DNA of 64,000 nt from Escherichia phage PECP14, in the sequence record OQ870555.1. One strand, written 5' to 3'. Below are positions 12,153 through 46,841 of the stretch, one piece after another; position 1 is the stretch's first letter, and each line of letters starts with the position of its first letter. A program made the translations under genes and the position numbers. The notes beneath the pieces are model-generated. The model was not told the origin of the DNA. It made no database searches and saw nothing but the letters and a program-made list of their open reading frames with translations.

Positions 12153-12692
12153 TTATACCTTAAGTTTCTGAAGAGCCTTACACATTTCAAGATCTGGACT
12201 AAATTCCAGCATATAGCTGATAGCATTTAAATCTTGAAGGTTTATTCCAGTCCTGCCATTTACAATAACAGTAGGAAATTGGTACATCATAGCACCAGCA
12301 TCATCTAGGACGCACCAATGCTTGAGCTTATGTTTTTCTACGAAACGTAAGACAGAATTACCCCGAGATAAACCACCTCCAGTAAAATCTGTTGTACCAA
12401 GAAAACGATCGATCAAACCGAGTCCGGTCATAATCTGAACGTTCTCCATTTCATTTCGTACAGAAAACCATGAAGATACCCCAACAATCATTATTGGGGA
12501 TGGCTTAAGAAAGTTCTGAAAAGCCTGGAGTAATGGCTTGTAAACCCAATCACCACCAAAGAATAGCTTCTCACTATCTGGAGCATGATGGTGAGAGATG
12601 CTCGAATTGAGCACCCCATCAATATCCAGGAAAATCACAGGAGTATTACTTATTTCCACCAGTAGCATCCCACGTCCAGACTTTAACTTCAT
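12153..12692 (-). CDS. HAD-superfamily hydrolase/phosphatase-like
   Basis: motif I VIFLDIDGVLN near N-terminus. Confidence 0.45.
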   Translation of the reverse strand: MKLKSGRGMLLVEISNTPVIFLDIDGVLNSSISHHHAPDSEKLFFGGDWVYKPLLQAFQNFLKPSPIMIVGVSSWFSVRNEMENVQIMTGLGLIDRFLGTTDFTGGGLSRGNSVLRFVEKHKLKHWCVLDDAGAMMYQFPTVIVNGRTGINLQDLNAISYMLEFSPDLEMCKALQKLKV

Positions 12693-12831: not shown

Positions 12832-12994
12832 ATTCTCCCTCCTTAATAAGGAACTCTTTCCATTCTGCTGTATCCTCATAGATAACGCAGAAATCATCAC
12901 TCTTCCATGAGAAGTCATCAGTAGCAAATTCGAAACGGTAGCACCAACTACCGTCTGGCCATACTAAAAGATCACACATGCTTTTCTGGGACAT
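12812..12994 (-). CDS. hypothetical small protein
   Basis: internal Met start with GGAGGG SD; acidic C-terminus. Confidence 0.35.
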   Translation of the reverse strand: MSQKSMCDLLVWPDGSWCYRFEFATDDFSWKSDDFCVIYEDTAEWKEFLIKEGEYGEEDF

Positions 12995-13823
12995 AAATAT
13001 TTCCCTCCATAAAAGCTTCAACTTGATCAATAAAGTGTTTATTACCAAAAACTTCGGCAGCTCCAGCACGCCATACAGTAACACCACGTTTCTCATACTC
13101 AAGCTGTTCGTCATAACGAACTTGTGGGTTAACAACCATCATCTTAGTTCCACGACATACAGCAGGAAATAGCTCCCAGTTGAAGTCGATTACTTGGTTG
13201 CTACAACCTACTACAATAACCATATCATTGCTAGTAAGTGTATCAAACAGGTTAATCTGACCCATATACCACGGAGCCGTCTCACCAAAGAATGTTACGT
13301 TTGGTTTTACCCATTCGTAATCCTCAGGGGCAATCGCAGTATACCCAACATCTTCGATGATTTGGTTGCGACCCTGACGATAGATCACCTCTTTCAAGTA
13401 CCCGTGAGCGTGAATGATTTCATCACGAGGGATACCAGCACGTTCCAGAAGGTCATCAACGTTAGTAGTGAAGTTCTTCACGCTATCCTCACCATAACGC
13501 TGGAACCATTCTGCAATTCGCAGATGGGCAATGTTAGGCTCAACAGTCTGTAATTCCTGACGACGCATGTTGTAGAACTCATGAGTCTTGAGATACAGAT
13601 CGTTACCATCTTTATCAATGCCAGGGAAACGAGCACTGAAGTAGTTAGGATCATCTTCACCACAGAAGCGACGGAAGCCAGCTTCAAAGTTAGGCAAGCT
13701 ACATACTTCCTCTAGATCGTACTCATCCCACAAGGATTTCCCACTAGCAGTATCAGTACGGAAAGCACGAACACCACTATCTACACTCAAACCTGCACCA
13801 CTAACAACGATTAGTCTACGCAT
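12972..13823 (-). CDS. Sir2-like NAD-dependent deacylase/ADP-ribosyltransferase
   Basis: GAGLSVDSGVRAFR (Rossmann NAD motif), TTNVDDL (TQNID-like), catalytic HG. Confidence 0.65.
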   Translation of the reverse strand: MRRLIVVSGAGLSVDSGVRAFRTDTASGKSLWDEYDLEEVCSLPNFEAGFRRFCGEDDPNYFSARFPGIDKDGNDLYLKTHEFYNMRRQELQTVEPNIAHLRIAEWFQRYGEDSVKNFTTNVDDLLERAGIPRDEIIHAHGYLKEVIYRQGRNQIIEDVGYTAIAPEDYEWVKPNVTFFGETAPWYMGQINLFDTLTSNDMVIVVGCSNQVIDFNWELFPAVCRGTKMMVVNPQVRYDEQLEYEKRGVTVWRAGAAEVFGNKHFIDQVEAFMEGNIYVPEKHV

Positions 13824-14017
13824 TATACGATTCCTTGCTTGAATCCTTCGATGATATTTTGGAGCAGAATTGCTTCTTCTGGGCGAACCTTCTCTTGCTT
13901 AATAAGCATATCCAAACCAGCAATACAGGTAGCTACTCCAGCATTATACCCAGCATTCCACTGCTCCATGAGCATATTTTCTAAATTACTTTTTAGATTC
14001 TGATTCAAGAAGTCCAT
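13823..14017 (-). CDS. hypothetical protein
   Basis: start set at the internal Met with GGAGG SD (ORF extends to 14101). Confidence 0.35.
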   Translation of the reverse strand: MDFLNQNLKSNLENMLMEQWNAGYNAGVATCIAGLDMLIKQEKVRPEEAILLQNIIEGFKQGIV

Positions 14018-14189
14018 AAAGTTTTTCCTCCAATTCCATAATACGATTTTCGTAAGAAGCACGCAGCTTCTCGATGGACAAAGCACGAACTGTAACTTCA
14101 TCTGAATTGATCGCTAGCTGAGCTAGATCTTCTGTTTCCATACGTCCGTTGTAAATTAAGCGATATTTAAGATGTTTTACGTTTTTCAT
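13986..14189 (-). CDS. hypothetical protein (coiled-coil)
   Basis: ORF with AAGGA SD. Confidence 0.4.
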   Translation of the reverse strand: MKNVKHLKYRLIYNGRMETEDLAQLAINSDEVTVRALSIEKLRASYENRIMELEEKLYGLLESESKK

Positions 14190-14198
14190 TCTTGTTCC

Positions 14199-14480
14199 TT
14201 AGTTCTGTACTGTAAATTCATTCTTATCACAGTGAGCATAATAATACCCATACATACGATAAATTTTCACAGCCTTAGTAGACCCCTTCGATTCTTCATA
14301 ATCAATCCAGAGCCACTTGTCTTTACCTACATAATGTACCCGAAACTTCTTAACTTTCTTATCATTCCATGTTGCAACAACACGACGATAATCAAATCCG
14401 CCCAACCAATCTAGAGCCTTACGTTCTTCACTAGGCTCTCCAAGATGGGAAACATCTACTTTTGGAAGCAATTCGCTCAT
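14199..14480 (-). CDS. hypothetical protein
   Basis: ORF with early-type promoter upstream (14509-14537). Confidence 0.5.
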   Translation of the reverse strand: MSELLPKVDVSHLGEPSEERKALDWLGGFDYRRVVATWNDKKVKKFRVHYVGKDKWLWIDYEESKGSTKAVKIYRMYGYYYAHCDKNEFTVQN

Positions 14481-14508
14481 AGCTTTCTCCTCTCAAATTT
14501 ATAAATCA

Positions 14509-14537
14509 ATTATACATAAGTTTTAGCTCGAAAGCAA
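14509..14537 (-). promoter_or_regulatory. leftward early promoter cassette
   Basis: minus strand TTGCTT-17-TATAAT + ATAAATTTGAGAGGAG. Confidence 0.5.
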
Positions 14538-14573
14538 ATAAAATAAAAGCCAGGTCGACTAGCAACCTGGCTG
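14535..14573 (-). terminator. intrinsic terminator after nrdD
   Basis: minus strand AGCCAGGT...ACCTGGCT + TTTTATTTTATTT. Confidence 0.55.
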
Positions 14574-14578
14574 ATTCA

Positions 14579-16453
14579 TTATTTAGCGCGAATGTCTTGA
14601 TGTTTCACTCGACCCATAACCTCATGTTGTTTACCTGGGTTAAACGGACGAGCACCTGGATTTCCAAGATATCCACAAACTCGACGAGTTACCTCAAGAG
14701 TCTCAGGATCATGATTGCCACAAATTGGGCATTTGAAACCATCCTCAGAAGCTATAGTTTCACCCAAGAACCCACATTCCCCACAAGAGTCTACTGGAGT
14801 ATTAATACCGAAGTAATGAACTTTACTTGCAGCATAGTTAATAACCCATTCCAGTGCATCAGGGAATCGTTTCATATCCGGTAATTCCACATAGGAAATG
14901 CACCCACCAGAAGCAATAGGAGTAAAGTTAGACTCATAATCAAACTTCACATTTGGAGCAACCTTACGTTCTACATCAAGGTGATGGGAATTAGTGTAAT
15001 ATCCTTTAGCCAGAATATCTTCATGCTCTGGGAAATACTCACGGTCTAGGCGACAGAAGCGATCACATAGAGATTCAGATGGTGTAGCATACAGACTATA
15101 CCCTAATTGAGTCTCTTCCTTCTTCTGATCAGCACGATCACGCATGTATTGTAGCACACGTTGAACGAACTTGATACAAGACTCAGACATTGTATCTACA
15201 TCTTTACCAAACATGAGCTGCAACATTTCGTGGCAACCAATATATCCTAGAGATACAGAAGCACGCTTGTAGAAATGATCAAATACATATTCATCTGGCC
15301 CCAGACGTAATCCAAAGGCTCCTGACATATAGAGGATGGGCGCAGCTTTAGCTTGAATGTATTTTAAGCGATCAACCCTCCACTCCAATGCTTTTAACGC
15401 GGTATCCACACGCAGCTCAAGCAGATCGAAGAATAGATCAATATTTCCTTCCGCTTCGATAGCGATTCGAGGAAGGTTTACGGAAACAACGCCTAAGTTG
15501 TTACGACCAGAAGTTTCACCATCTTCCGCAGCAGCCAGGAACGAACGACAGCCCATAGAGACTTTGTAGTCCCCCGTAACTTCTACAACCTTATCATAAC
15601 TGATGTAGTCAGGATACATACGTTCAGCAGTACATTTCATAGCTAACTTCTTGATATCATAGTTAACATCACCAGGTTTCATGTTTACGCCCTCACGCAA
15701 AACAAATACCAGTTTAGGGAAGATAGCTGTACGTTTATTGATACCCAAACCATCCATACGTACTTCTAGTATTGCTTTCTGTACAAGACGTGCTTCCCAA
15801 GAAGTTCCTAGACCAAAACCAAAGGTAATAAACGGACTTTGACCATTAGAGTTGAACATCGTATTGATTTCATACTCCAGGCCCTGACAGGCATCGTAAA
15901 CTTCTTTCTCAGTCATTTCCGTAGCCATTACAGATGCTTTGGCTTCATCCTTAGTCCAACGCTTTGCAAACGCATGATTCTTATCATAAGACTTACGAAC
16001 ATAAGGAGCCAATACTTCATCTAATCGGTCTACAGAAGTACCCCCATATTGATGTGAACTAACCTGAGTGATAATCTGAGCTGTGATAGCAGCCGCAGTA
16101 GTAATAGAGTTTGGTGTACTGATTTCAGCATTACCAACCTTCATACCATTCTTCAACATATCTTCCAAAGCAACCAGGCAACAGTTAGTCATACCTAATG
16201 CAGCGTAATCAGCATCATGGAAGTGAATATCACCAATCATGTGAGCATTTCGAATCTGGATTGGCATTTCTTCCAGAATCAGATATTTACTCAATTCCCC
16301 TGCAAGCATATCCCTTTGTGTAGGGAAACGTTCTGAGGGCTTATTGGCATTATTAAACAGCAGCTCTTCATCTGCTGAACCTTCGATAATTTCTTTGCAG
16401 TTTCGAATCAAGGACTGCATTCCTTTATACTTTAGTTCTTCATTGCGATTCAT
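14579..16453 (-). CDS. nrdD: anaerobic ribonucleoside-triphosphate reductase (class III)
   Basis: C-terminal Cys cluster (CGECG...CPICG) and glycyl-radical motif RVCGYLG. Confidence 0.85.
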   Translation of the reverse strand: MNRNEELKYKGMQSLIRNCKEIIEGSADEELLFNNANKPSERFPTQRDMLAGELSKYLILEEMPIQIRNAHMIGDIHFHDADYAALGMTNCCLVALEDMLKNGMKVGNAEISTPNSITTAAAITAQIITQVSSHQYGGTSVDRLDEVLAPYVRKSYDKNHAFAKRWTKDEAKASVMATEMTEKEVYDACQGLEYEINTMFNSNGQSPFITFGFGLGTSWEARLVQKAILEVRMDGLGINKRTAIFPKLVFVLREGVNMKPGDVNYDIKKLAMKCTAERMYPDYISYDKVVEVTGDYKVSMGCRSFLAAAEDGETSGRNNLGVVSVNLPRIAIEAEGNIDLFFDLLELRVDTALKALEWRVDRLKYIQAKAAPILYMSGAFGLRLGPDEYVFDHFYKRASVSLGYIGCHEMLQLMFGKDVDTMSESCIKFVQRVLQYMRDRADQKKEETQLGYSLYATPSESLCDRFCRLDREYFPEHEDILAKGYYTNSHHLDVERKVAPNVKFDYESNFTPIASGGCISYVELPDMKRFPDALEWVINYAASKVHYFGINTPVDSCGECGFLGETIASEDGFKCPICGNHDPETLEVTRRVCGYLGNPGARPFNPGKQHEVMGRVKHQDIRAK

Positions 16454-16483
16454 TATACCCTCCTTCTCTAACTAAGACTACTA

Positions 16484-16512
16484 TTATAACTCATTCGAAG
16501 GCGGATGTCAAC
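16484..16512 (-). promoter_or_regulatory. leftward consensus promoter for nrdD
   Basis: minus strand reads TTGACA-17-TATAAT, then GAAGGAGGG SD and nrdD ATG. Confidence 0.55.
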
Positions 16513-16562
16513 AATATTTTACTATAAAGTTCTGTAACATGATCTGAGTCAAAAAATTTTAT

Positions 16563-16591
16563 TTGCCAACCTCTACTAAAAATAGTATAAT
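16563..16591 (+). promoter_or_regulatory. rightward promoter in divergent control region
   Basis: TTGCCA-17-TATAAT on plus strand upstream of phoH. Confidence 0.45.
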
Positions 16592-16703
16592 CACGCACCC
16601 GTGTACGCGATATAAAATGATTATCTAGTACCATACATCTCCCAGTAAAAGCAAGTAAATTTTTTATTTAAATGCAATATCATAGGCTTATTTAAAATTG
16701 TAG

Positions 16704-16738
16704 TTGCCTTTTACTGTATATAATGGTATAATATATTT
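16704..16738 (+). promoter_or_regulatory. rightward promoter(s) upstream of phoH
   Basis: TTGCCT followed by two overlapping TATAAT hexamers. Confidence 0.45.
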
Positions 16739-16805
16739 GTAAGTTGATAAACAAGATCTTTTTGTTGATCCTCTGTTAGCGAAGTACACTATAGGAGTGT
16801 TATTT

Positions 16806-17558
16806 ATGGGAAAACCGCGTCAGAAAAGAGAGAACCGTAATGGTTCAAGAAAGCGTAGCAACAAGTACGAGAGTAACGTAATTCAGGCTGACTTTTCGAA
16901 TGATTACGCCAATCCAGTTGCTAAATCCCTAGTTGGTAAAAACCGTGAGCAAAAATCATATATCAATATGATCAAGAATAACACAGTGACTGTGGGTATT
17001 GGTGAACCAGGTACTGGTAAAACCTTCATCCCGTCAGTTCTTGCAGCTCAGGAACTCGTAGACATTCACTCAGATATTGAGCAAGTGATCCTCGTGCGTC
17101 CGAACGAACCTCTAGGTAAATCTCTTGGTATGCTCCCAGGTGATCTGGCAGAAAAGCTAGAGCCTTGGTTGGAACCAATAGCCGATGGCATGAAATGGGC
17201 AATCGGTGATCACGCCTACAAAGGATATGTCGAACGCCAGAAAATTAAATTCCTGGCTATCGAACATGCCCGTGGCCGAACTTTCAACAACTCCTATGTA
17301 ATTGTCGATGAAGCTCAGAATATCTCCGTTGAAGCAATGATCTGTCTCCTGACTCGTGTCGGACAGGATTGCCGTTTAATCATCTGTGGAGATATCGCTC
17401 AGAAAGACATTAAGGGTGACTCCGGTCTAGCACTTCTTATGGAAGTCTATGAGAAGTACGAGAACGCCCCTTTCTCAATGATCGAACTAATTGATAACGT
17501 TCGTTCTGTTGAGTCTAAAGCATTCTACGATATCTTTAAGGATATGGGGAAGGTATAA
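16806..17558 (+). CDS. phoH: PhoH-like ATPase
   Basis: Walker A GEPGTGKTF, Walker B VIVDEAQN; TAGGAG SD before ATG 16806. Confidence 0.75.
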   Translation: MGKPRQKRENRNGSRKRSNKYESNVIQADFSNDYANPVAKSLVGKNREQKSYINMIKNNTVTVGIGEPGTGKTFIPSVLAAQELVDIHSDIEQVILVRPNEPLGKSLGMLPGDLAEKLEPWLEPIADGMKWAIGDHAYKGYVERQKIKFLAIEHARGRTFNNSYVIVDEAQNISVEAMICLLTRVGQDCRLIICGDIAQKDIKGDSGLALLMEVYEKYENAPFSMIELIDNVRSVESKAFYDIFKDMGKV

Positions 17559-17559
17559 T

Positions 17560-17802
17560 ATGGGAAACGTCGTACATCTGCACCGCAAAACTAAGATCCA
17601 CCGTACTTCACTGAGTGCTGCTAATATGATTACACGCAAAGAAGGGGAAGAAAGTCCAAAGACTTCCCTAGCGTGGAAAATTGTAGCCTCTAACCCAAAC
17701 CGGCCATTCAATTATAACGAACTTTCAACATCAGTAGATATTCTTCTGAGGGCGAATGCGAAAGCAAAAGTAATTAATCAAGCCGAAAAACTAGACTGGT
17801 AA
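17560..17802 (+). CDS. hypothetical protein
   Basis: ORF starting at ATG 17560 directly after phoH. Confidence 0.4.
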   Translation: MGNVVHLHRKTKIHRTSLSAANMITRKEGEESPKTSLAWKIVASNPNRPFNYNELSTSVDILLRANAKAKVINQAEKLDW

Positions 17803-17923
17803 TATAGAAGGCCTGGGTATGAAAATACTCGGGCCTTTTCTATCAGAAAATTTTATTTGCCAAATGACTGAGAATAAAGTAAACTATTTCCTTAATCCTG
17901 ATAATTACAAAAAGGAAAGCCAA

Positions 17924-20254
17924 ATGAGCCATCGCATCGAAAAAGTAATTAAACGTGACGGTACTGTTCAGGACTTTGCTCCTGAAAAACTCAATGATTG
18001 GGCCGCATGGGCATGTAAAGATACTGACGTAAGTTGGTCTGCCGTAGTTATGGCTGCCCTGAAAAATCTACCCAAAGGTGTTGTAGACTCCGATACACTC
18101 CAAGATGTGTTAATTAAAGCCGCTGAAGGTCTTATCAAAGACAATCCAGCATATGATACTGTAGCAAAGGAATTACGTCTTGCGCAGATGCGTAAACGCC
18201 TATATGATTCCTTCGAACCACCTTCTCTGCGTTTCTTCCACGATCATATGGTTCGTGTTGGCGCTTGGGAAGACATGAGTGCATGGATTAGCGATGATCA
18301 GTTTGACGCTCTGAATCAAGTTATTGACCATGATCGCGATCGTTTATTCACCAGTGGTGGACTGAAACAGTTCTTCGACAAGTATTCCCGTCGTAATATT
18401 GCAACTGGTGAAATTTATGAAACCCCGCAGTTTGCCTACATGGGTATGGCAATGGCGATGTTATCTCAACCTAACTGGACAATTCTAGATGCAATCGACC
18501 TCTACAATGCAATGTCGCTCCACAAAATCAACGTTCCTACGCCGCCACTGGTTGGCCTGCGCTCTAGTGACCGTGGATTTGCTAGTTGCTGCCTCGTGGA
18601 TTCCACTGACACTCTGGATTCAATCGACACAGCCGAGCACATCGTCTTCAAAATGGTCGCAGCCAGAGCGGGAATCGGGTATCATCTTGAAAGCCGATCA
18701 ATTGCTGATCCGGTGCGAAATGGGGCATTCCCGCATTCCGGAAAACTGCCATATTATCGACACATTGACCGTTCAGTAAAAGCTAACACTCAGCAAACCC
18801 GTGGCGGTTCTGCTACTGTGTCTTATCCATACTTCGATCCTGAAATCATTCAGTTGATGCAGGTTAAACAGCAACGTGCTACAGACGAGAATAAAATCGA
18901 TAAAATGGATTACTCTCTGAGCTTTAACAACCTTCTGTTAAAACGTTACCTGAAAAACGAAGATATTACGCTAATGTCCTACTTCTACGCACCAGAAGTT
19001 CATGAAGCGTTTTATGGCGAAGATGAGGCTAAGTTTGAAGAAATCTACATGGCAGCGGAGAAACGTGTGGCATCTCTTACAAAGATCGACCACGAAGGGA
19101 AAACAATTCCAGCAGCTCCTAGAATCTCTGCAAAAGAAATCCTAGATACTTGGTTACGCATCCGTATGGAAACAGGGCGTATGTACGCTCATCATATTGG
19201 TGAATCTAACCGTCATGGTAACTTCCTTGACCCGATTCGTATGACCAACCTTTGTGTAGAGATTACTCAGCCTACTCGTCCATTCCAGCACATTACGGAA
19301 CTGTACAAAACTGCGGATCAATTAGATGATATGCGTCCAGAAGATATTGGTGAAGTATCTCTGTGTAACTTAGGTGGTGTTGTACTTGGACGCATGGAAT
19401 CTCTGGCTGAGTGGGAAAAAACTTGCTACATCCTACTGAAATTCGTTGATACAATTATTGAAATTCAGGATTATCCGTTCCCAACTATGGAATATACAGC
19501 TAAGAAACGTCGTAATGTTGGTATTGGCCTGATGAACGCAGCAGGTGCAATGGCAGCAGAAGGTCTGGCTTATGAAGGTATTGAAGCCCGTAACTGGATT
19601 CACCGTGAGGCTGAAAAACTGTCTTACTTCCTGCATAAAGCCTCTGTACGCCTAGCTAAAGAACAGGGTGCATGTGAGTGGTTTGATCGTACTAAACCAT
19701 CTAAAGGAATTCTGGTAATCGACACGTACAAGAAAACTGTTGATGAACTGGTATCCGTAGGTCTAGAAATGGATTGGGAGTCTCTGCGTGCAGATATTCT
19801 GAAATATGGTATGCGTAATTCTGTTCTGACTGCTCAGATGCCAGGAGAAAGTTCTTCTGTTCTGCTAGGAGTTACTAACTCTATCGAACCGCCTCGTAAG
19901 ATTGTATCTATCAAGGGTAGTGCAGTGAATAAAGTAATTGCAATTGCTCCAGGTGCAACCGATTGGGAAACGTTAATGAGCTATAAACTGGCTTATGATG
20001 TAGATCGTATCGAGTGGATCAAATGGGTAGCAACTATGCAGAAATTCTTCAGTCAGTCTATCAGTACGAATATGTACTATGACTACACCAAGTTTGATAA
20101 TGAAATCATTCCTGGCCCAGTAGTAGTTCGTGATTTCATGACTGCTGTTAAGTATGGGTGGAAAACTTTCTACTATGCAAACTTCAATACCGCAAATGGT
20201 GGAGGTGCTGGAGAAGAAGCAGCCGGTTGTGCATCCGGCGGTTGTACTATTTAA
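17924..20254 (+). CDS. nrdA: ribonucleotide reductase large subunit (class Ia)
   Basis: ATP-cone N-terminus (VIKRDGTVQDF), catalytic-site Cys motifs, C-terminal CxxC tail; start at Met with AAGGA SD. Confidence 0.85.
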   Translation: MSHRIEKVIKRDGTVQDFAPEKLNDWAAWACKDTDVSWSAVVMAALKNLPKGVVDSDTLQDVLIKAAEGLIKDNPAYDTVAKELRLAQMRKRLYDSFEPPSLRFFHDHMVRVGAWEDMSAWISDDQFDALNQVIDHDRDRLFTSGGLKQFFDKYSRRNIATGEIYETPQFAYMGMAMAMLSQPNWTILDAIDLYNAMSLHKINVPTPPLVGLRSSDRGFASCCLVDSTDTLDSIDTAEHIVFKMVAARAGIGYHLESRSIADPVRNGAFPHSGKLPYYRHIDRSVKANTQQTRGGSATVSYPYFDPEIIQLMQVKQQRATDENKIDKMDYSLSFNNLLLKRYLKNEDITLMSYFYAPEVHEAFYGEDEAKFEEIYMAAEKRVASLTKIDHEGKTIPAAPRISAKEILDTWLRIRMETGRMYAHHIGESNRHGNFLDPIRMTNLCVEITQPTRPFQHITELYKTADQLDDMRPEDIGEVSLCNLGGVVLGRMESLAEWEKTCYILLKFVDTIIEIQDYPFPTMEYTAKKRRNVGIGLMNAAGAMAAEGLAYEGIEARNWIHREAEKLSYFLHKASVRLAKEQGACEWFDRTKPSKGILVIDTYKKTVDELVSVGLEMDWESLRADILKYGMRNSVLTAQMPGESSSVLLGVTNSIEPPRKIVSIKGSAVNKVIAIAPGATDWETLMSYKLAYDVDRIEWIKWVATMQKFFSQSISTNMYYDYTKFDNEIIPGPVVVRDFMTAVKYGWKTFYYANFNTANGGGAGEEAAGCASGGCTI

Positions 20255-45393: not shown

Positions 45394-45762
45394 ATGAAAG
45401 CATATCAAAGTCTTAAGTCTGGCGTAATTAACATTGTTCATAACAATCAGATCATTCAACTATATTCTAAAGATGGTGAACTTAAACAGAAAGTTCTAGT
45501 CGAAGATCTAGAAGGTATCACACCTCACTTTGACCCTGAGGCCTTTCGCATTGTAGATGTGGAAGTGGTTCCTCAAGTCGAGGGTGGTCAGCACCTAAAT
45601 GTCAATGTGTTAAGCCGTGATCAGCTTTTGGATGCACAGAAACATCCTGAAAAATATCCTCAGTTGACCATCCGTGTCTCTGGCTATGCTGTTCGATTTA
45701 ACGCATTGACGCGTGAACAACAGAACGACGTTATTAGTCGTACATTTACTCAGGCGATATAA
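45394..45762 (+). CDS. grcA: autonomous glycyl-radical cofactor (GrcA/YfiD-like)
   Basis: C-terminus [35 protein letters not shown] (glycyl-radical motif RVSGY). Confidence 0.75.
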
Positions 45763-45843: not shown

Positions 45844-46137
45844 GTGGATCGAGCATTAAGACGCCATCACCGGCAACGTGTGAAAAACAATCGCAAGAAG
45901 TATTGGACAGTCTTCCCACATGAAGAAAGCCCTAAGCGGTTAGGCATTATCACTACCACTCCTTGCATCTGTTCTTGTTGGATGTGTGGGAATCCTCGCA
46001 AATACCATAAGAATAGTAAAGCAGGCATGAAAATCTCGGAGATTAAAAAGATGGATGCAATGATCTTAGGTATCGGATACGGCGAAGGTATTTCAAATGA
46101 TGAATTTGATGGCTTCGTAGGTTTCGGTGAAGGTTAA
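45844..46137 (+). CDS. hypothetical protein
   Basis: ORF followed by hairpin terminator. Confidence 0.4.
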   Translation: MDRALRRHHRQRVKNNRKKYWTVFPHEESPKRLGIITTTPCICSCWMCGNPRKYHKNSKAGMKISEIKKMDAMILGIGYGEGISNDEFDGFVGFGEG

Positions 46138-46445: not shown

Positions 46446-46841
46446 ATGAGCCGTACATATCGTAAACAATCTGGTAATCGTCACTGGCGTGATGCACATC
46501 GTTCTACTTATAATTTTCATAGCACTAATATCCGTATTCCATATATCTACACGGATAGGGATGGTAAGCAGTGGAAATATTATCAAGTTCGATCCAATGA
46601 AGCATGGGCTAAAACTTGGGATGAAATTGAGAAGGAGATCCAGGAAAACATCATTCGTAACGAGAAGAAAGATGGGCACTGGTGGGATTCTATTAGTAGA
46701 AGTGTTAAGTGGCATTCTAACAAAATGGTTCGTCAGGGAAACCGTCGTGAACTTCACCGTGTGATGAAAGATCCAGAAAATTACGACTATAATCGTGATC
46801 ATGACCTGCGTAAGCGTGGGTTATGGTGGGTTTACGACTAA
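46446..46841 (+). CDS. hypothetical protein (basic, Trp-rich)
   Basis: ORF. Confidence 0.45.
   Translation: MSRTYRKQSGNRHWRDAHRSTYNFHSTNIRIPYIYTDRDGKQWKYYQVRSNEAWAKTWDEIEKEIQENIIRNEKKDGHWWDSISRSVKWHSNKMVRQGNRRELHRVMKDPENYDYNRDHDLRKRGLWWVYD

What the first reader, a model, noticed from the sequence alone, without database searches (positions are those of the whole stretch)
14579..16453. Anaerobic RNR NrdD without an adjacent NrdG activase, plus a GrcA-like cofactor 29 kb away
NrdD (glycyl-radical motif RVCGYLG) has no recognisable radical-SAM activase (CxxxCxxC) next to it; the adjacent ORFs are short and lack that motif. A separate 122-aa ORF (45394-45762) carries the GrcA/YfiD C-terminus ([10 protein letters not shown]), a spare glycyl-radical domain that in E. 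coli repairs oxygen-damaged pyruvate formate-lyase. The phage may rely on host activases (NrdG/PflA) while supplying its own glycyl-radical parts.
Basis: partly seen in the sequence, partly recalled or inferred. Interest (0 to 1): 0.6.

Follow-up and report, generated by a model that had tools for sequence, protein, structure and literature searches.

The report
T5-like phage NrdD lacking its activase
A T5-like phage of Salmonella/E. coli carries an intact anaerobic ribonucleotide reductase and a small GrcA-type spare glycyl-radical protein but no enzyme to switch either on, so it most likely uses the host's activases; this gene pattern is real, but it is already in the literature and in T5 annotations.

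Summary
The window is a T5-like phage (Demerecviridae, Epseptimavirus; about 97-99% identical to Salmonella phage Stitch). ORF 14579-16453(-) is a genuine class III ribonucleotide reductase, NrdD, with every catalytic residue present. It has its own consensus promoter and terminator. ORF 45394-45762(+) is a GrcA/YfiD-type protein that keeps the radical glycine.

No glycyl-radical activase (NrdG- or PflA-like) was found in the window or in the complete genomes of Stitch and T5. I searched with tblastn, HMMs and a six-frame CX3CX2C scan. Both genes are under strong purifying selection (dN/dS 0.015 and 0.058 against T5), so neither is a relic.

The best explanation is that pre-existing host NrdG activates the phage NrdD and host PflA activates the phage GrcA-like protein. 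This is inferred, not shown.

None of it is new. Dwivedi et al. 2013 reported phages, listing the T5/EPS7/SPC35 cluster among their RNR-bearing phages, that carry nrdD with nrdAB but no nrdG. The T5 genome annotation lists both genes. Wagner et al. 2001 showed that the T4 homologue Y06I works as a GrcA. Interest is low. Which enzyme activates T5 NrdD is still untested but easy to test.

The parts
14579..16453 (-). nrdD: class III (anaerobic) ribonucleoside-triphosphate reductase, 624 aa, without the N-terminal ATP-cone
   Evidence: Pfam NRDD 1.8e-172. NCBIfam NF006732 840.6 bits, cut-off 657. 54% identical to E. coli NrdD from E. coli residue 113 onward. dN/dS 0.015 against T5.
14672..14674 (-). 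codon of Gly594, the predicted glycyl-radical site in RRVCGYLG
   Evidence: Motif located at residues 590-597. It aligns with E. coli and T4 RRxCGYLG.
14714..14785 (-). Zn-ribbon cysteines (CGEC...CPIC, residues 557-580), the region thought to dock NrdG
   Evidence: All four Cys are conserved with E. coli and T4 NrdD. The NrdG-docking role is a conjecture quoted in PMC4493059.
15548..15556 (-). M300-G301-C302: thiyl-radical cysteine and the methionine typical of formate-dependent NrdD
   Evidence: SMGCRSF aligns with E. coli PMGC(384)RSF and T4 PMGCRSF. The residue roles come from my knowledge of the E. coli and T4 enzymes.
16483..16511 (-). sigma-70 promoter-like site (TTGACA-17-TATAAT, 12/12) just upstream of nrdD
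   Evidence: Consensus scan. T5 annotates a promoter at the equivalent place.
14548..14572 (-). intrinsic terminator-like hairpin (10 bp stem, T-run) starting 7 nt after the nrdD stop; nrdD is a single-gene unit
   Evidence: Scan. T5 annotates a rho-independent terminator at the same place.
14199..14480 (-). 93-aa ORF in the position where nrdG would sit; not an activase and not an nrdG remnant
   Evidence: No Pfam hit. Only T5-like homologues. The weak NrdG-like 'GKDxWxW' stretch (E 0.4-0.6) is not conserved in its own family. hhalign probability 1.5%.
45394..45762 (+). GrcA/YfiD-like autonomous glycyl-radical protein, 122 aa
   Evidence: Pfam Gly_radical 4.1e-18. 74% identical to E. coli GrcA over 74 aa. 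52% identical over the full length to the T4-like phage GrcA. dN/dS 0.058 against T5.
45682..45684 (+). codon of Gly97 in RVSGYAV, equivalent to GrcA G102 and PflB G734
   Evidence: Invariant column in the alignment with T5.056, T4-like GrcA, E. coli GrcA and the PflB C-terminus.
45844..46137 (+). 97-aa basic Cys-rich ORF just downstream of the GrcA-like gene; considered as an activase candidate and rejected
   Evidence: It is the only real ORF with a CX3CX2C string. It is too short, has no Pfam or NCBIfam hit, and its first Cys is not conserved in the family.
17819..20254 (+). nrdA (class Ia reductase large subunit), context: the phage also has the aerobic enzyme
   Evidence: ORF translation. 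Stitch and T5 annotate nrdA and nrdB here.

Best explanation
The phage supplies only the stoichiometric glycyl-radical proteins and uses host activases that are already in the cell. (1) Shown: nrdD is a complete, selected, separately transcribed class III reductase of the formate-dependent type, and like T4 NrdD it lacks the ATP-cone. (2) Shown: T5-like Markadamsvirinae encode no glycyl-radical activase. (3) Inferred: in anaerobically growing E. coli or Salmonella, host NrdG is present because the host nrdDG operon is expressed. NrdG acts catalytically, so host NrdG puts the radical on Gly594 of the phage NrdD using S-adenosylmethionine and reduced flavodoxin. The phage then gets a highly expressed reductase without dATP feedback inhibition and does not need to carry nrdG. 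(4) Inferred by homology with E. coli GrcA and T4 Y06I: host PflA activates Gly97 of the GrcA-like protein, which then replaces the oxygen-cleaved C-terminal radical domain of host pyruvate formate-lyase. (5) More speculative: this keeps formate production going, and formate is the reductant of this NrdD type, so the two phage genes serve one purpose, namely dNTP synthesis during low-oxygen infection.
For: NrdD is an intact family member with its own promoter and terminator. It is under strong purifying selection: dN/dS 0.015 at dS 0.63. No activase was found. tblastn with E. coli NrdG, E. coli PflA, T4 NrdG and a Vibrio-phage NrdG gave best E 0.58 against the window and Stitch and 1.9 against T5. 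An NrdG HMM and PflA phmmer over all six-frame ORFs gave best E 0.43. The CX3CX2C scan found nothing usable. No activase is annotated in Stitch or T5. The same queries do find NrdG in other phages (2,273 records) and in a Vibrio member of the same family at E 3e-61, so the negative result is not a sensitivity failure. Rough arithmetic agrees: 2,796 phage records hold NrdD, 2,273 hold NrdG, and about 551 carry the T5-type NrdD. The 32 residues around the radical glycine are 25/32 identical to E. coli NrdD, against 18/32 for T4, which brings its own NrdG; this is a trend only (p = 0.11). The GrcA-like protein keeps the PFL-type RVSGYAV motif and the whole C-terminal radical domain. Its T4 relative is reported to function as a GrcA (Wagner 2001, cited in PMC12338860). 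That E. coli NrdD needs its own specific activase is the title claim of Sun et al. 1995 (reference list).
Against: No experiment shows that host NrdG activates a T5-type NrdD. My recollection, which I could not verify here (the paper is not held), is that activase-reductase pairs of different origin cross-react poorly. T4 keeps its own nrdG in the same hosts. The phage NrdD is only 54% identical to the host enzyme. The excess similarity at the C-terminus is not statistically significant (p = 0.11-0.18). T5 degrades host DNA early, so only NrdG made before infection would be available. The half of this phage's genome that lies outside the window was not seen directly. The formate link between the two genes is pure inference.
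Confidence: 0.7

Rival explanations
1. The phage encodes its own activase, either unrecognisable (non-homologous or highly diverged, for example the 97-aa Cys-rich protein next to the GrcA-like gene or the 93-aa ORF after nrdD) or located in the part of the genome outside the window.
For: The 97-aa ORF holds the string CICSCWMC (a CX3CX2C) and sits 82 nt downstream of the GrcA-like gene. The 93-aa ORF lies exactly where nrdG would be and gave the top, though non-significant, NrdG hits (E 0.43-0.58). About half of this phage's genome is unseen.
Against: At 97 aa the ORF is too short for even the smallest known radical-SAM activase fold (NrdG is 154-160 aa). Its first Cys is replaced in a family member, and it has no Pfam or NCBIfam hit. 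The NrdG-like stretch in the 93-aa ORF is not conserved in its own family, and hhalign gives 1.5% probability. Two complete related genomes contain no activase in any frame.
Confidence: 0.05
2. nrdD is inactive or dispensable cargo in these phages (no activation occurs), or it has a role that does not need the radical.
For: Dwivedi et al. state that it is unknown whether RNRs in phages with incomplete gene suites are functional. The laboratory T5 reference genome carries a 50-aa in-frame deletion inside NrdD that removes the conserved SLGYIGxHE segment, so the gene can be lost without killing the phage under laboratory conditions.
Against: dN/dS is 0.015 over dS 0.63 between this phage and T5. 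Every catalytic, Zn-binding and radical-site residue is conserved. About 390 T5-like records keep NrdD at 90% protein identity or more. The gene has a perfect consensus promoter.
Confidence: 0.1
3. A different host activase (PflA or another glycyl-radical-enzyme activase), rather than NrdG, activates the phage NrdD; or the GrcA-like protein acts on the phage NrdD itself. Some annotators call it a 'ribonucleotide reductase subunit'.
For: Stitch and Sds2 annotate the GrcA-like gene as 'ribonucleotide reductase subunit'. PflA would have to be present anyway to activate the GrcA-like protein.
Against: The GrcA-like C-terminus is PFL-type ([10 protein letters not shown]; its last ~60 residues are near-identical to those of PflB), not NrdD-type (RVCGYLG). 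E. coli NrdD is reported to need its own specific activase (Sun 1995, title). The Gly loop of the phage NrdD is 25/32 identical to the host NrdD loop, which fits recognition by NrdG.
Confidence: 0.05

Closest known systems
Bacteriophage T5 nrdD (T5.099) and T5.056, and the same genes in other Markadamsvirinae (Stitch, EPS7, SPC35, BASEL T5-like phages)
   Same: Orthologous genes in the same genomic positions: nrdD divergent from phoH-nrdA-nrdB, and the GrcA-like gene at the edge of the tRNA region. The nrdD coding sequence is identical in protein to that of Stitch and matches T5 with dN 0.0097. The GrcA-like protein is 94% identical to T5.056. None has an activase.
   Different: Only allelic differences. 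The T5 reference NrdD has a 50-aa internal deletion that this phage lacks.
Bacteriophage T4 class III RNR system (nrdD + nrdG) and T4 Y06I (vs.6) GrcA homologue
   Same: NrdD also lacks the ATP-cone, is about 50% identical, and has the same catalytic residues and Zn ribbon. The phage GrcA homologue is 52% identical over its full length, including the shared N-terminus MKAYQ.
   Different: T4 carries its own activase gene nrdG just downstream of nrdD; this phage carries none. T4 nrdD is interrupted by a group I intron; this one is not.
E. coli / Salmonella NrdDG and GrcA-PflA-PflB
   Same: NrdD is 54% identical. GrcA is 74% identical over the radical domain. The chemistry is presumed the same, and the host activases are the presumed partners.
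   Different: The phage NrdD lacks the first ~110 residues (the ATP-cone region) of the host enzyme. The N-terminal half of the phage GrcA-like protein is unrelated to host GrcA, and the protein scores below the TIGR04365 cut-off (118 against 170).
Vibrio-infecting Demerecviridae (Ermolyevavirinae, e.g. phage Wyman)
   Same: Same phage family, and NrdD is 53% identical.
   Different: They have nrdD - glutaredoxin-like gene - nrdB - nrdA - nrdG. Their NrdG is a bona fide member (238 bits, cut-off 199; 57% identical to E. coli NrdG), and their NrdD is longer, 726 aa.

Membership tests
Class III ribonucleotide reductase catalytic subunit (NrdD) | Full-length match to curated NrdD models above their cut-offs | tested here: met
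   NF006732 840.6 bits (cut-off 657); TIGR02487 589.4 bits (cut-off 326). Pfam NRDD 1.8e-172.
Class III ribonucleotide reductase catalytic subunit (NrdD) | C-terminal glycyl-radical motif RVCGY with the glycine | tested here: met
   RRVCGYLG at residues 590-597, Gly594, aligned with E. coli and T4.
Class III ribonucleotide reductase catalytic subunit (NrdD) | Active-site thiyl cysteine (E. coli C384), second cysteine (C175), Met382 of formate-type enzymes, and the four Zn-ribbon cysteines | tested here: met
   C302, C91, M300, CGEC...CPIC all conserved. The residue roles come from my knowledge of the E. coli and T4 enzymes.
Class III ribonucleotide reductase catalytic subunit (NrdD) | Radical formation and NTP reduction | not testable with these tools
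   Needs anaerobic biochemistry or EPR.
Glycyl-radical-enzyme activase (NrdG / PflA, radical SAM) | Homology to NrdG or PflA anywhere in the phage | tested here: not met
   Best tblastn E 0.58 (window, Stitch) and 1.9 (T5); best HMM/phmmer E 0.43. Positive control: Wyman NrdG at E 3e-61.
Glycyl-radical-enzyme activase (NrdG / PflA, radical SAM) | CX3CX2C [4Fe-4S] motif in an ORF of suitable size (about 150 aa or more) | tested here: not met
   Six-frame scans of the window, Stitch and T5 find the motif in only one real ORF, of 97-106 aa, and its first Cys is not conserved.
Autonomous glycyl radical cofactor (GrcA/YfiD) | Small (about 120-127 aa) stand-alone protein whose C-terminus reproduces the PFL radical domain, with RVSGYAV and the glycine | tested here: met
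   122 aa. Residues 63-119 are almost invariant with GrcA and the PflB C-terminus. Gly97 is conserved.
Autonomous glycyl radical cofactor (GrcA/YfiD) | Score above the curated equivalog cut-off (TIGR04365 spare_glycyl, 170 bits) | tested here: not met
   118.3 bits, matching only residues 54-121. The T4-like phage GrcA also falls below the cut-off (154.6), while E. coli GrcA scores 234. The cut-off separates bacterial from phage versions and does not bear on function.
Autonomous glycyl radical cofactor (GrcA/YfiD) | Activation by PflA and rescue of oxygen-cleaved PflB | not testable with these tools
   Reported for E. coli YfiD and T4 Y06I (Wagner 2001, cited). Not tested for the T5-type protein.

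The most novel reading that the evidence does not exclude
T5-like phages run a two-gene low-oxygen dNTP module that depends entirely on host radical-SAM activases made before infection. Host PflA arms the phage GrcA-like protein, which keeps host pyruvate formate-lyase producing formate. Host NrdG arms the phage's formate-dependent, ATP-cone-less NrdD, which consumes that formate. If so, anaerobic or microaerobic T5-type infection would depend on host nrdG and pflA, which would be a defined host-dependency factor for gut infections.
Probability: 0.3. Interest if true: 0.4.

Novelty: already known. Interest (0 to 1): 0.2.

Why it matters
T5-like phages are common in the gut and are used in Salmonella and E. 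coli biocontrol, and the gut is largely anoxic. If their anaerobic dNTP supply depends on host NrdG, and their formate supply on PflA plus a phage GrcA, then host nrdG and pflA are conditional host factors for infection in the very environment where these phages are meant to work. The gene pattern itself is ordinary and documented. Only the biochemical proof of cross-activation is missing.

Tried and rejected
(1) The 93-aa ORF just downstream of nrdD as a decayed nrdG. It gave the best NrdG hits of all six-frame ORFs (E 0.43-0.58, 'GKDKWLWIDY' against 'GKDIWVWTGY'). But the stretch is not conserved among its own homologues, T5 has an unrelated ORF there, and hhalign gives 1.5% probability. Rejected.

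(2) The 97-aa Cys-rich ORF next to the GrcA-like gene as a mini-activase. It has no family hit, its homologues occur only in T5-like phages, and the first Cys of the CX3CX2C string is not invariant. Rejected.

(3) C-terminal similarity as evidence for host NrdG docking. The phage is closer to E. coli than T4 is (43/72 against 32/67; 25/32 against 18/32 around the glycine), but p = 0.18 and 0.11. Kept only as a weak trend.

(4) Literature on cross-activation between NrdG and NrdD of different origin (Torrents 2001; Young 1994). The papers are not held, and several full-text searches for T5 plus nrdD/nrdG found nothing specific. The one T5-family-tagged hit (BME3) is an rV5-like phage.

(5) Finding the window's own complete genome. 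The best record covers only 95% of a 24.5-kb stretch at 97% identity, so relatives were used instead.

Full report
**What the window is.** Megablast of 14000-17000 finds 444 phage records. The best are Salmonella and Escherichia T5-like phages at 99% identity. The whole window aligns collinearly, at about 90-98% identity apart from a few short gaps, to positions 73195-9511 of Salmonella phage Stitch (Demerecviridae, Markadamsvirinae, Epseptimavirus). No record matches the window at near 100% across a 24.5-kb stretch. The source is therefore a mosaic relative, and its unseen half has to be judged from relatives.

**The observation.** ORF 14579-16453(-) encodes a 624-aa protein.
- It matches Pfam NRDD at 1.8e-172 and Gly_radical at 8.8e-23.
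- It scores 840.6 bits against NCBIfam equivalog NF006732, whose cut-off is 657.
- It is 54% identical to E. coli NrdD from E. coli residue 113 onward, so like T4 NrdD it lacks the ATP-cone.
- The thiyl cysteine (C302 in SMGCRSF), the second cysteine (C91), the methionine typical of formate-dependent enzymes (M300), the GRNNLGV asparagines, the four Zn-ribbon cysteines and Gly594 in RRVCGYLG are all present.
- A 12/12 sigma-70 consensus sits just upstream (16511..16483), and a 10-bp hairpin with a T-run follows the stop codon (14572..14548).
- T5 annotates a promoter and a terminator at the same places, so nrdD is a single-gene transcription unit.

ORF 45394-45762(+) encodes 122 aa. It matches Pfam Gly_radical at 4.1e-18. 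It is 74% identical to E. coli GrcA over the last 74 residues and 52% identical over its full length to the GrcA of a T4-like phage, sharing even the N-terminus MKAYQ. In a five-way alignment with T5.056, T4-like GrcA, E. coli GrcA and the PflB C-terminus, the block [10 protein letters not shown]...[19 protein letters not shown] is invariant, including Gly97. Both parts of the observation are confirmed.

**Is there really no activase?**
- The ORFs flanking nrdD (93, 67 and 92 aa, then Sir2; a divergent PhoH on the other side) have no radical-SAM hit.
- A six-frame scan for CX3CX2C over the window, the 123-kb Stitch genome and the 122-kb T5 genome finds the motif in antisense or out-of-frame segments and in one real ORF, the 97-106-aa gene just downstream of the GrcA-like gene.
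- That ORF has no Pfam or NCBIfam hit and belongs to a PHROG of unknown function. Its homologues occur only in T5-like phages. The first Cys of the string is replaced in one family member, which leaves a CSCxMCxxPRK motif. It is not an activase.
- tblastn with E. coli NrdG, E. coli PflA, T4 NrdG and a Vibrio-phage NrdG gives nothing better than E 0.58 in the window and Stitch, or 1.9 in T5.
- An NrdG HMM and PflA phmmer over 4,586 six-frame segments give nothing better than E 0.43.
- The same queries readily find NrdG elsewhere: 2,273 phage records, and at 3e-61 a Vibrio-infecting member of the same family, phage Wyman, whose genes run nrdD - glutaredoxin-like gene - nrdB - nrdA - nrdG. The negative result is therefore not a sensitivity failure.
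- Neither the Stitch nor the T5 annotation lists an activase.
- The counts fit. NrdD occurs in 2,796 records and NrdG in 2,273. About 551 records carry the T5-type NrdD at 60% identity or more.
- A Klebsiella T5-like phage with a 62%-identical NrdD also has no annotated nrdG next to nrdD.

**A lead that failed.** The top non-significant NrdG hit fell in the 93-aa ORF immediately downstream of nrdD, where nrdG sits in other phages ('GKDKWLWIDY' against 'GKDIWVWTGY'). The stretch is not conserved in that ORF's own family, T5 has an unrelated ORF there, and the profile-profile probability is 1.5%. I treat it as chance.

**Are the genes functional?** Between this phage and T5, nrdD has dN 0.0097, dS 0.63 and dN/dS 0.015. 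The GrcA-like gene has dN/dS 0.058. Both are under strong purifying selection. The T5 reference NrdD carries a 50-aa in-frame deletion (window residues 392-441, including the conserved SLGYIGxHE segment). The gene can therefore be damaged without loss of viability in laboratory culture.

**Mechanism.**
- From established knowledge of these families, NrdG is a specific activase for NrdD (Sun et al. 1995, reference), and my understanding is that it works catalytically.
- Also from my own knowledge, the host nrdDG operon is expressed anaerobically, so NrdG made before infection would be available even after T5 shuts off the host.
- A strongly expressed phage NrdD without an ATP-cone would raise dNTP output without dATP feedback.
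- A weak supporting trend: the 32 residues around the radical glycine are 25/32 identical to E. coli NrdD, against 18/32 for T4, which brings its own NrdG (p = 0.11).
- The GrcA-like protein is PFL-type (RVSGYAV), not NrdD-type. By homology with E. coli GrcA and T4 Y06I (Wagner 2001, cited in PMC12338860), it should be activated by PflA and should replace the oxygen-cleaved radical domain of host PflB.
- This NrdD has the residues of the formate-dependent subtype, and PFL is the enterobacterial formate source. The two genes could therefore cooperate. That last step is inference only.

**Rivals.**
- A hidden phage activase: about 5%.
- nrdD as non-functional cargo: about 10%, and the selection data argue against it.
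- Activation by PflA, or the GrcA-like protein acting as an RNR subunit as some records annotate it: about 5%.

**Comparison with what is known.** Dwivedi et al. [quoted passage not shown] They describe the phoH-containing spacer between class III and class I genes in SPC35, EPS7 and T5, and they note that it is unknown whether such incomplete suites function. The T5 genome record annotates T5.099 as nrdD and T5.056 as matching the glycine-radical domain IPR001150. GrcA homologues are found in 1,585 phage records and are often annotated as 'autonomous glycyl radical cofactor'. The finding is therefore a correct rediscovery.

**Membership.**
- NrdD: all sequence criteria are met.
- Activase: tested and absent.
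- GrcA: architecture and motif are met. The score is below the bacterial equivalog cut-off (118 against 170), but the T4-like phage GrcA is also below it (155). The protein belongs to a phage branch of the GrcA family.

**Verdict.** Novelty is 'already known' and interest is low (0.2). The residual value is a cheap, clear experiment: does T5-type infection under anoxia need host nrdG and pflA?

Noticed in passing
L010:3961-5685 (T5 NC_005859.1 53961-55685), against window 14579-16453: The reference T5 NrdD is 574 aa. It lacks window residues 392-441 through a 150-nt in-frame deletion that removes the conserved SLGYIGxHE segment. The laboratory T5 nrdD may be inactive.
   Followed up: partly
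window 45844-46137 (+): A 97-aa basic protein with an invariant RALRRHHRxR...CSCxMCxxPRK motif lies directly downstream of the GrcA-like gene. It is conserved only in T5-like phages (T5.055, PHROG 4499) and its function is unknown.
   Followed up: partly
L014:3159-8765 (Vibrio phage Wyman OQ095915.1): A Vibrio-infecting member of Demerecviridae has nrdD (726 aa) - glutaredoxin-like gene - nrdB - nrdA - nrdG, all annotated only as 'hypothetical protein'. The absence of nrdG is therefore specific to the enterobacterial T5-like lineages and is not family-wide.
   Followed up: partly
window 17491-17802 (+); Stitch103 / T5.097: The small ORF between phoH and nrdA is annotated 'tail length tape measure protein' in the RefSeq records of Stitch, T5 and a Klebsiella phage. 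For a 50-100-aa early-region ORF this looks like a propagated misannotation.
   Followed up: no
window 12972-13823 (-) and 12153-12692 (-): A Sir2-family protein (Pfam SIR2 1.2e-21) sits a few genes downstream of nrdD. The nearby 179-aa ORF is also labelled 'Sir2' in Stitch and T5. Stitch further annotates NMN transporter (PnuC-like) and NMN adenylyltransferase genes in the region matching roughly window 33.5-35.2 kb, so the phage carries an NAD-metabolism set.
   Followed up: no
window 46446-46841 (+): A 131-aa protein matches Pfam DUF7295 over its full length (5.3e-59), two genes after the GrcA-like gene. Its function is unknown.
   Followed up: no
phage collection record OR851003.1 (3,544 bp, 'Salmonella phage S.Kent 1-2-1'): This record carries an NrdG 94% identical to E. 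coli NrdG. It is probably a fragment of host chromosome deposited as phage sequence. It is the only 'Salmonella phage' hit of that kind seen.
   Followed up: no
window 45394-45762 and its homologues in public records: The same 122-aa gene is annotated variously as 'ribonucleotide reductase subunit', 'pyruvate formate-lyase', 'putative formate acetyltransferase', '2-ketobutyrate formate-lyase' or 'hypothetical protein' in T5-like genomes. T4-like genomes call their homologue 'autonomous glycyl radical cofactor GrcA'.
   Followed up: yes
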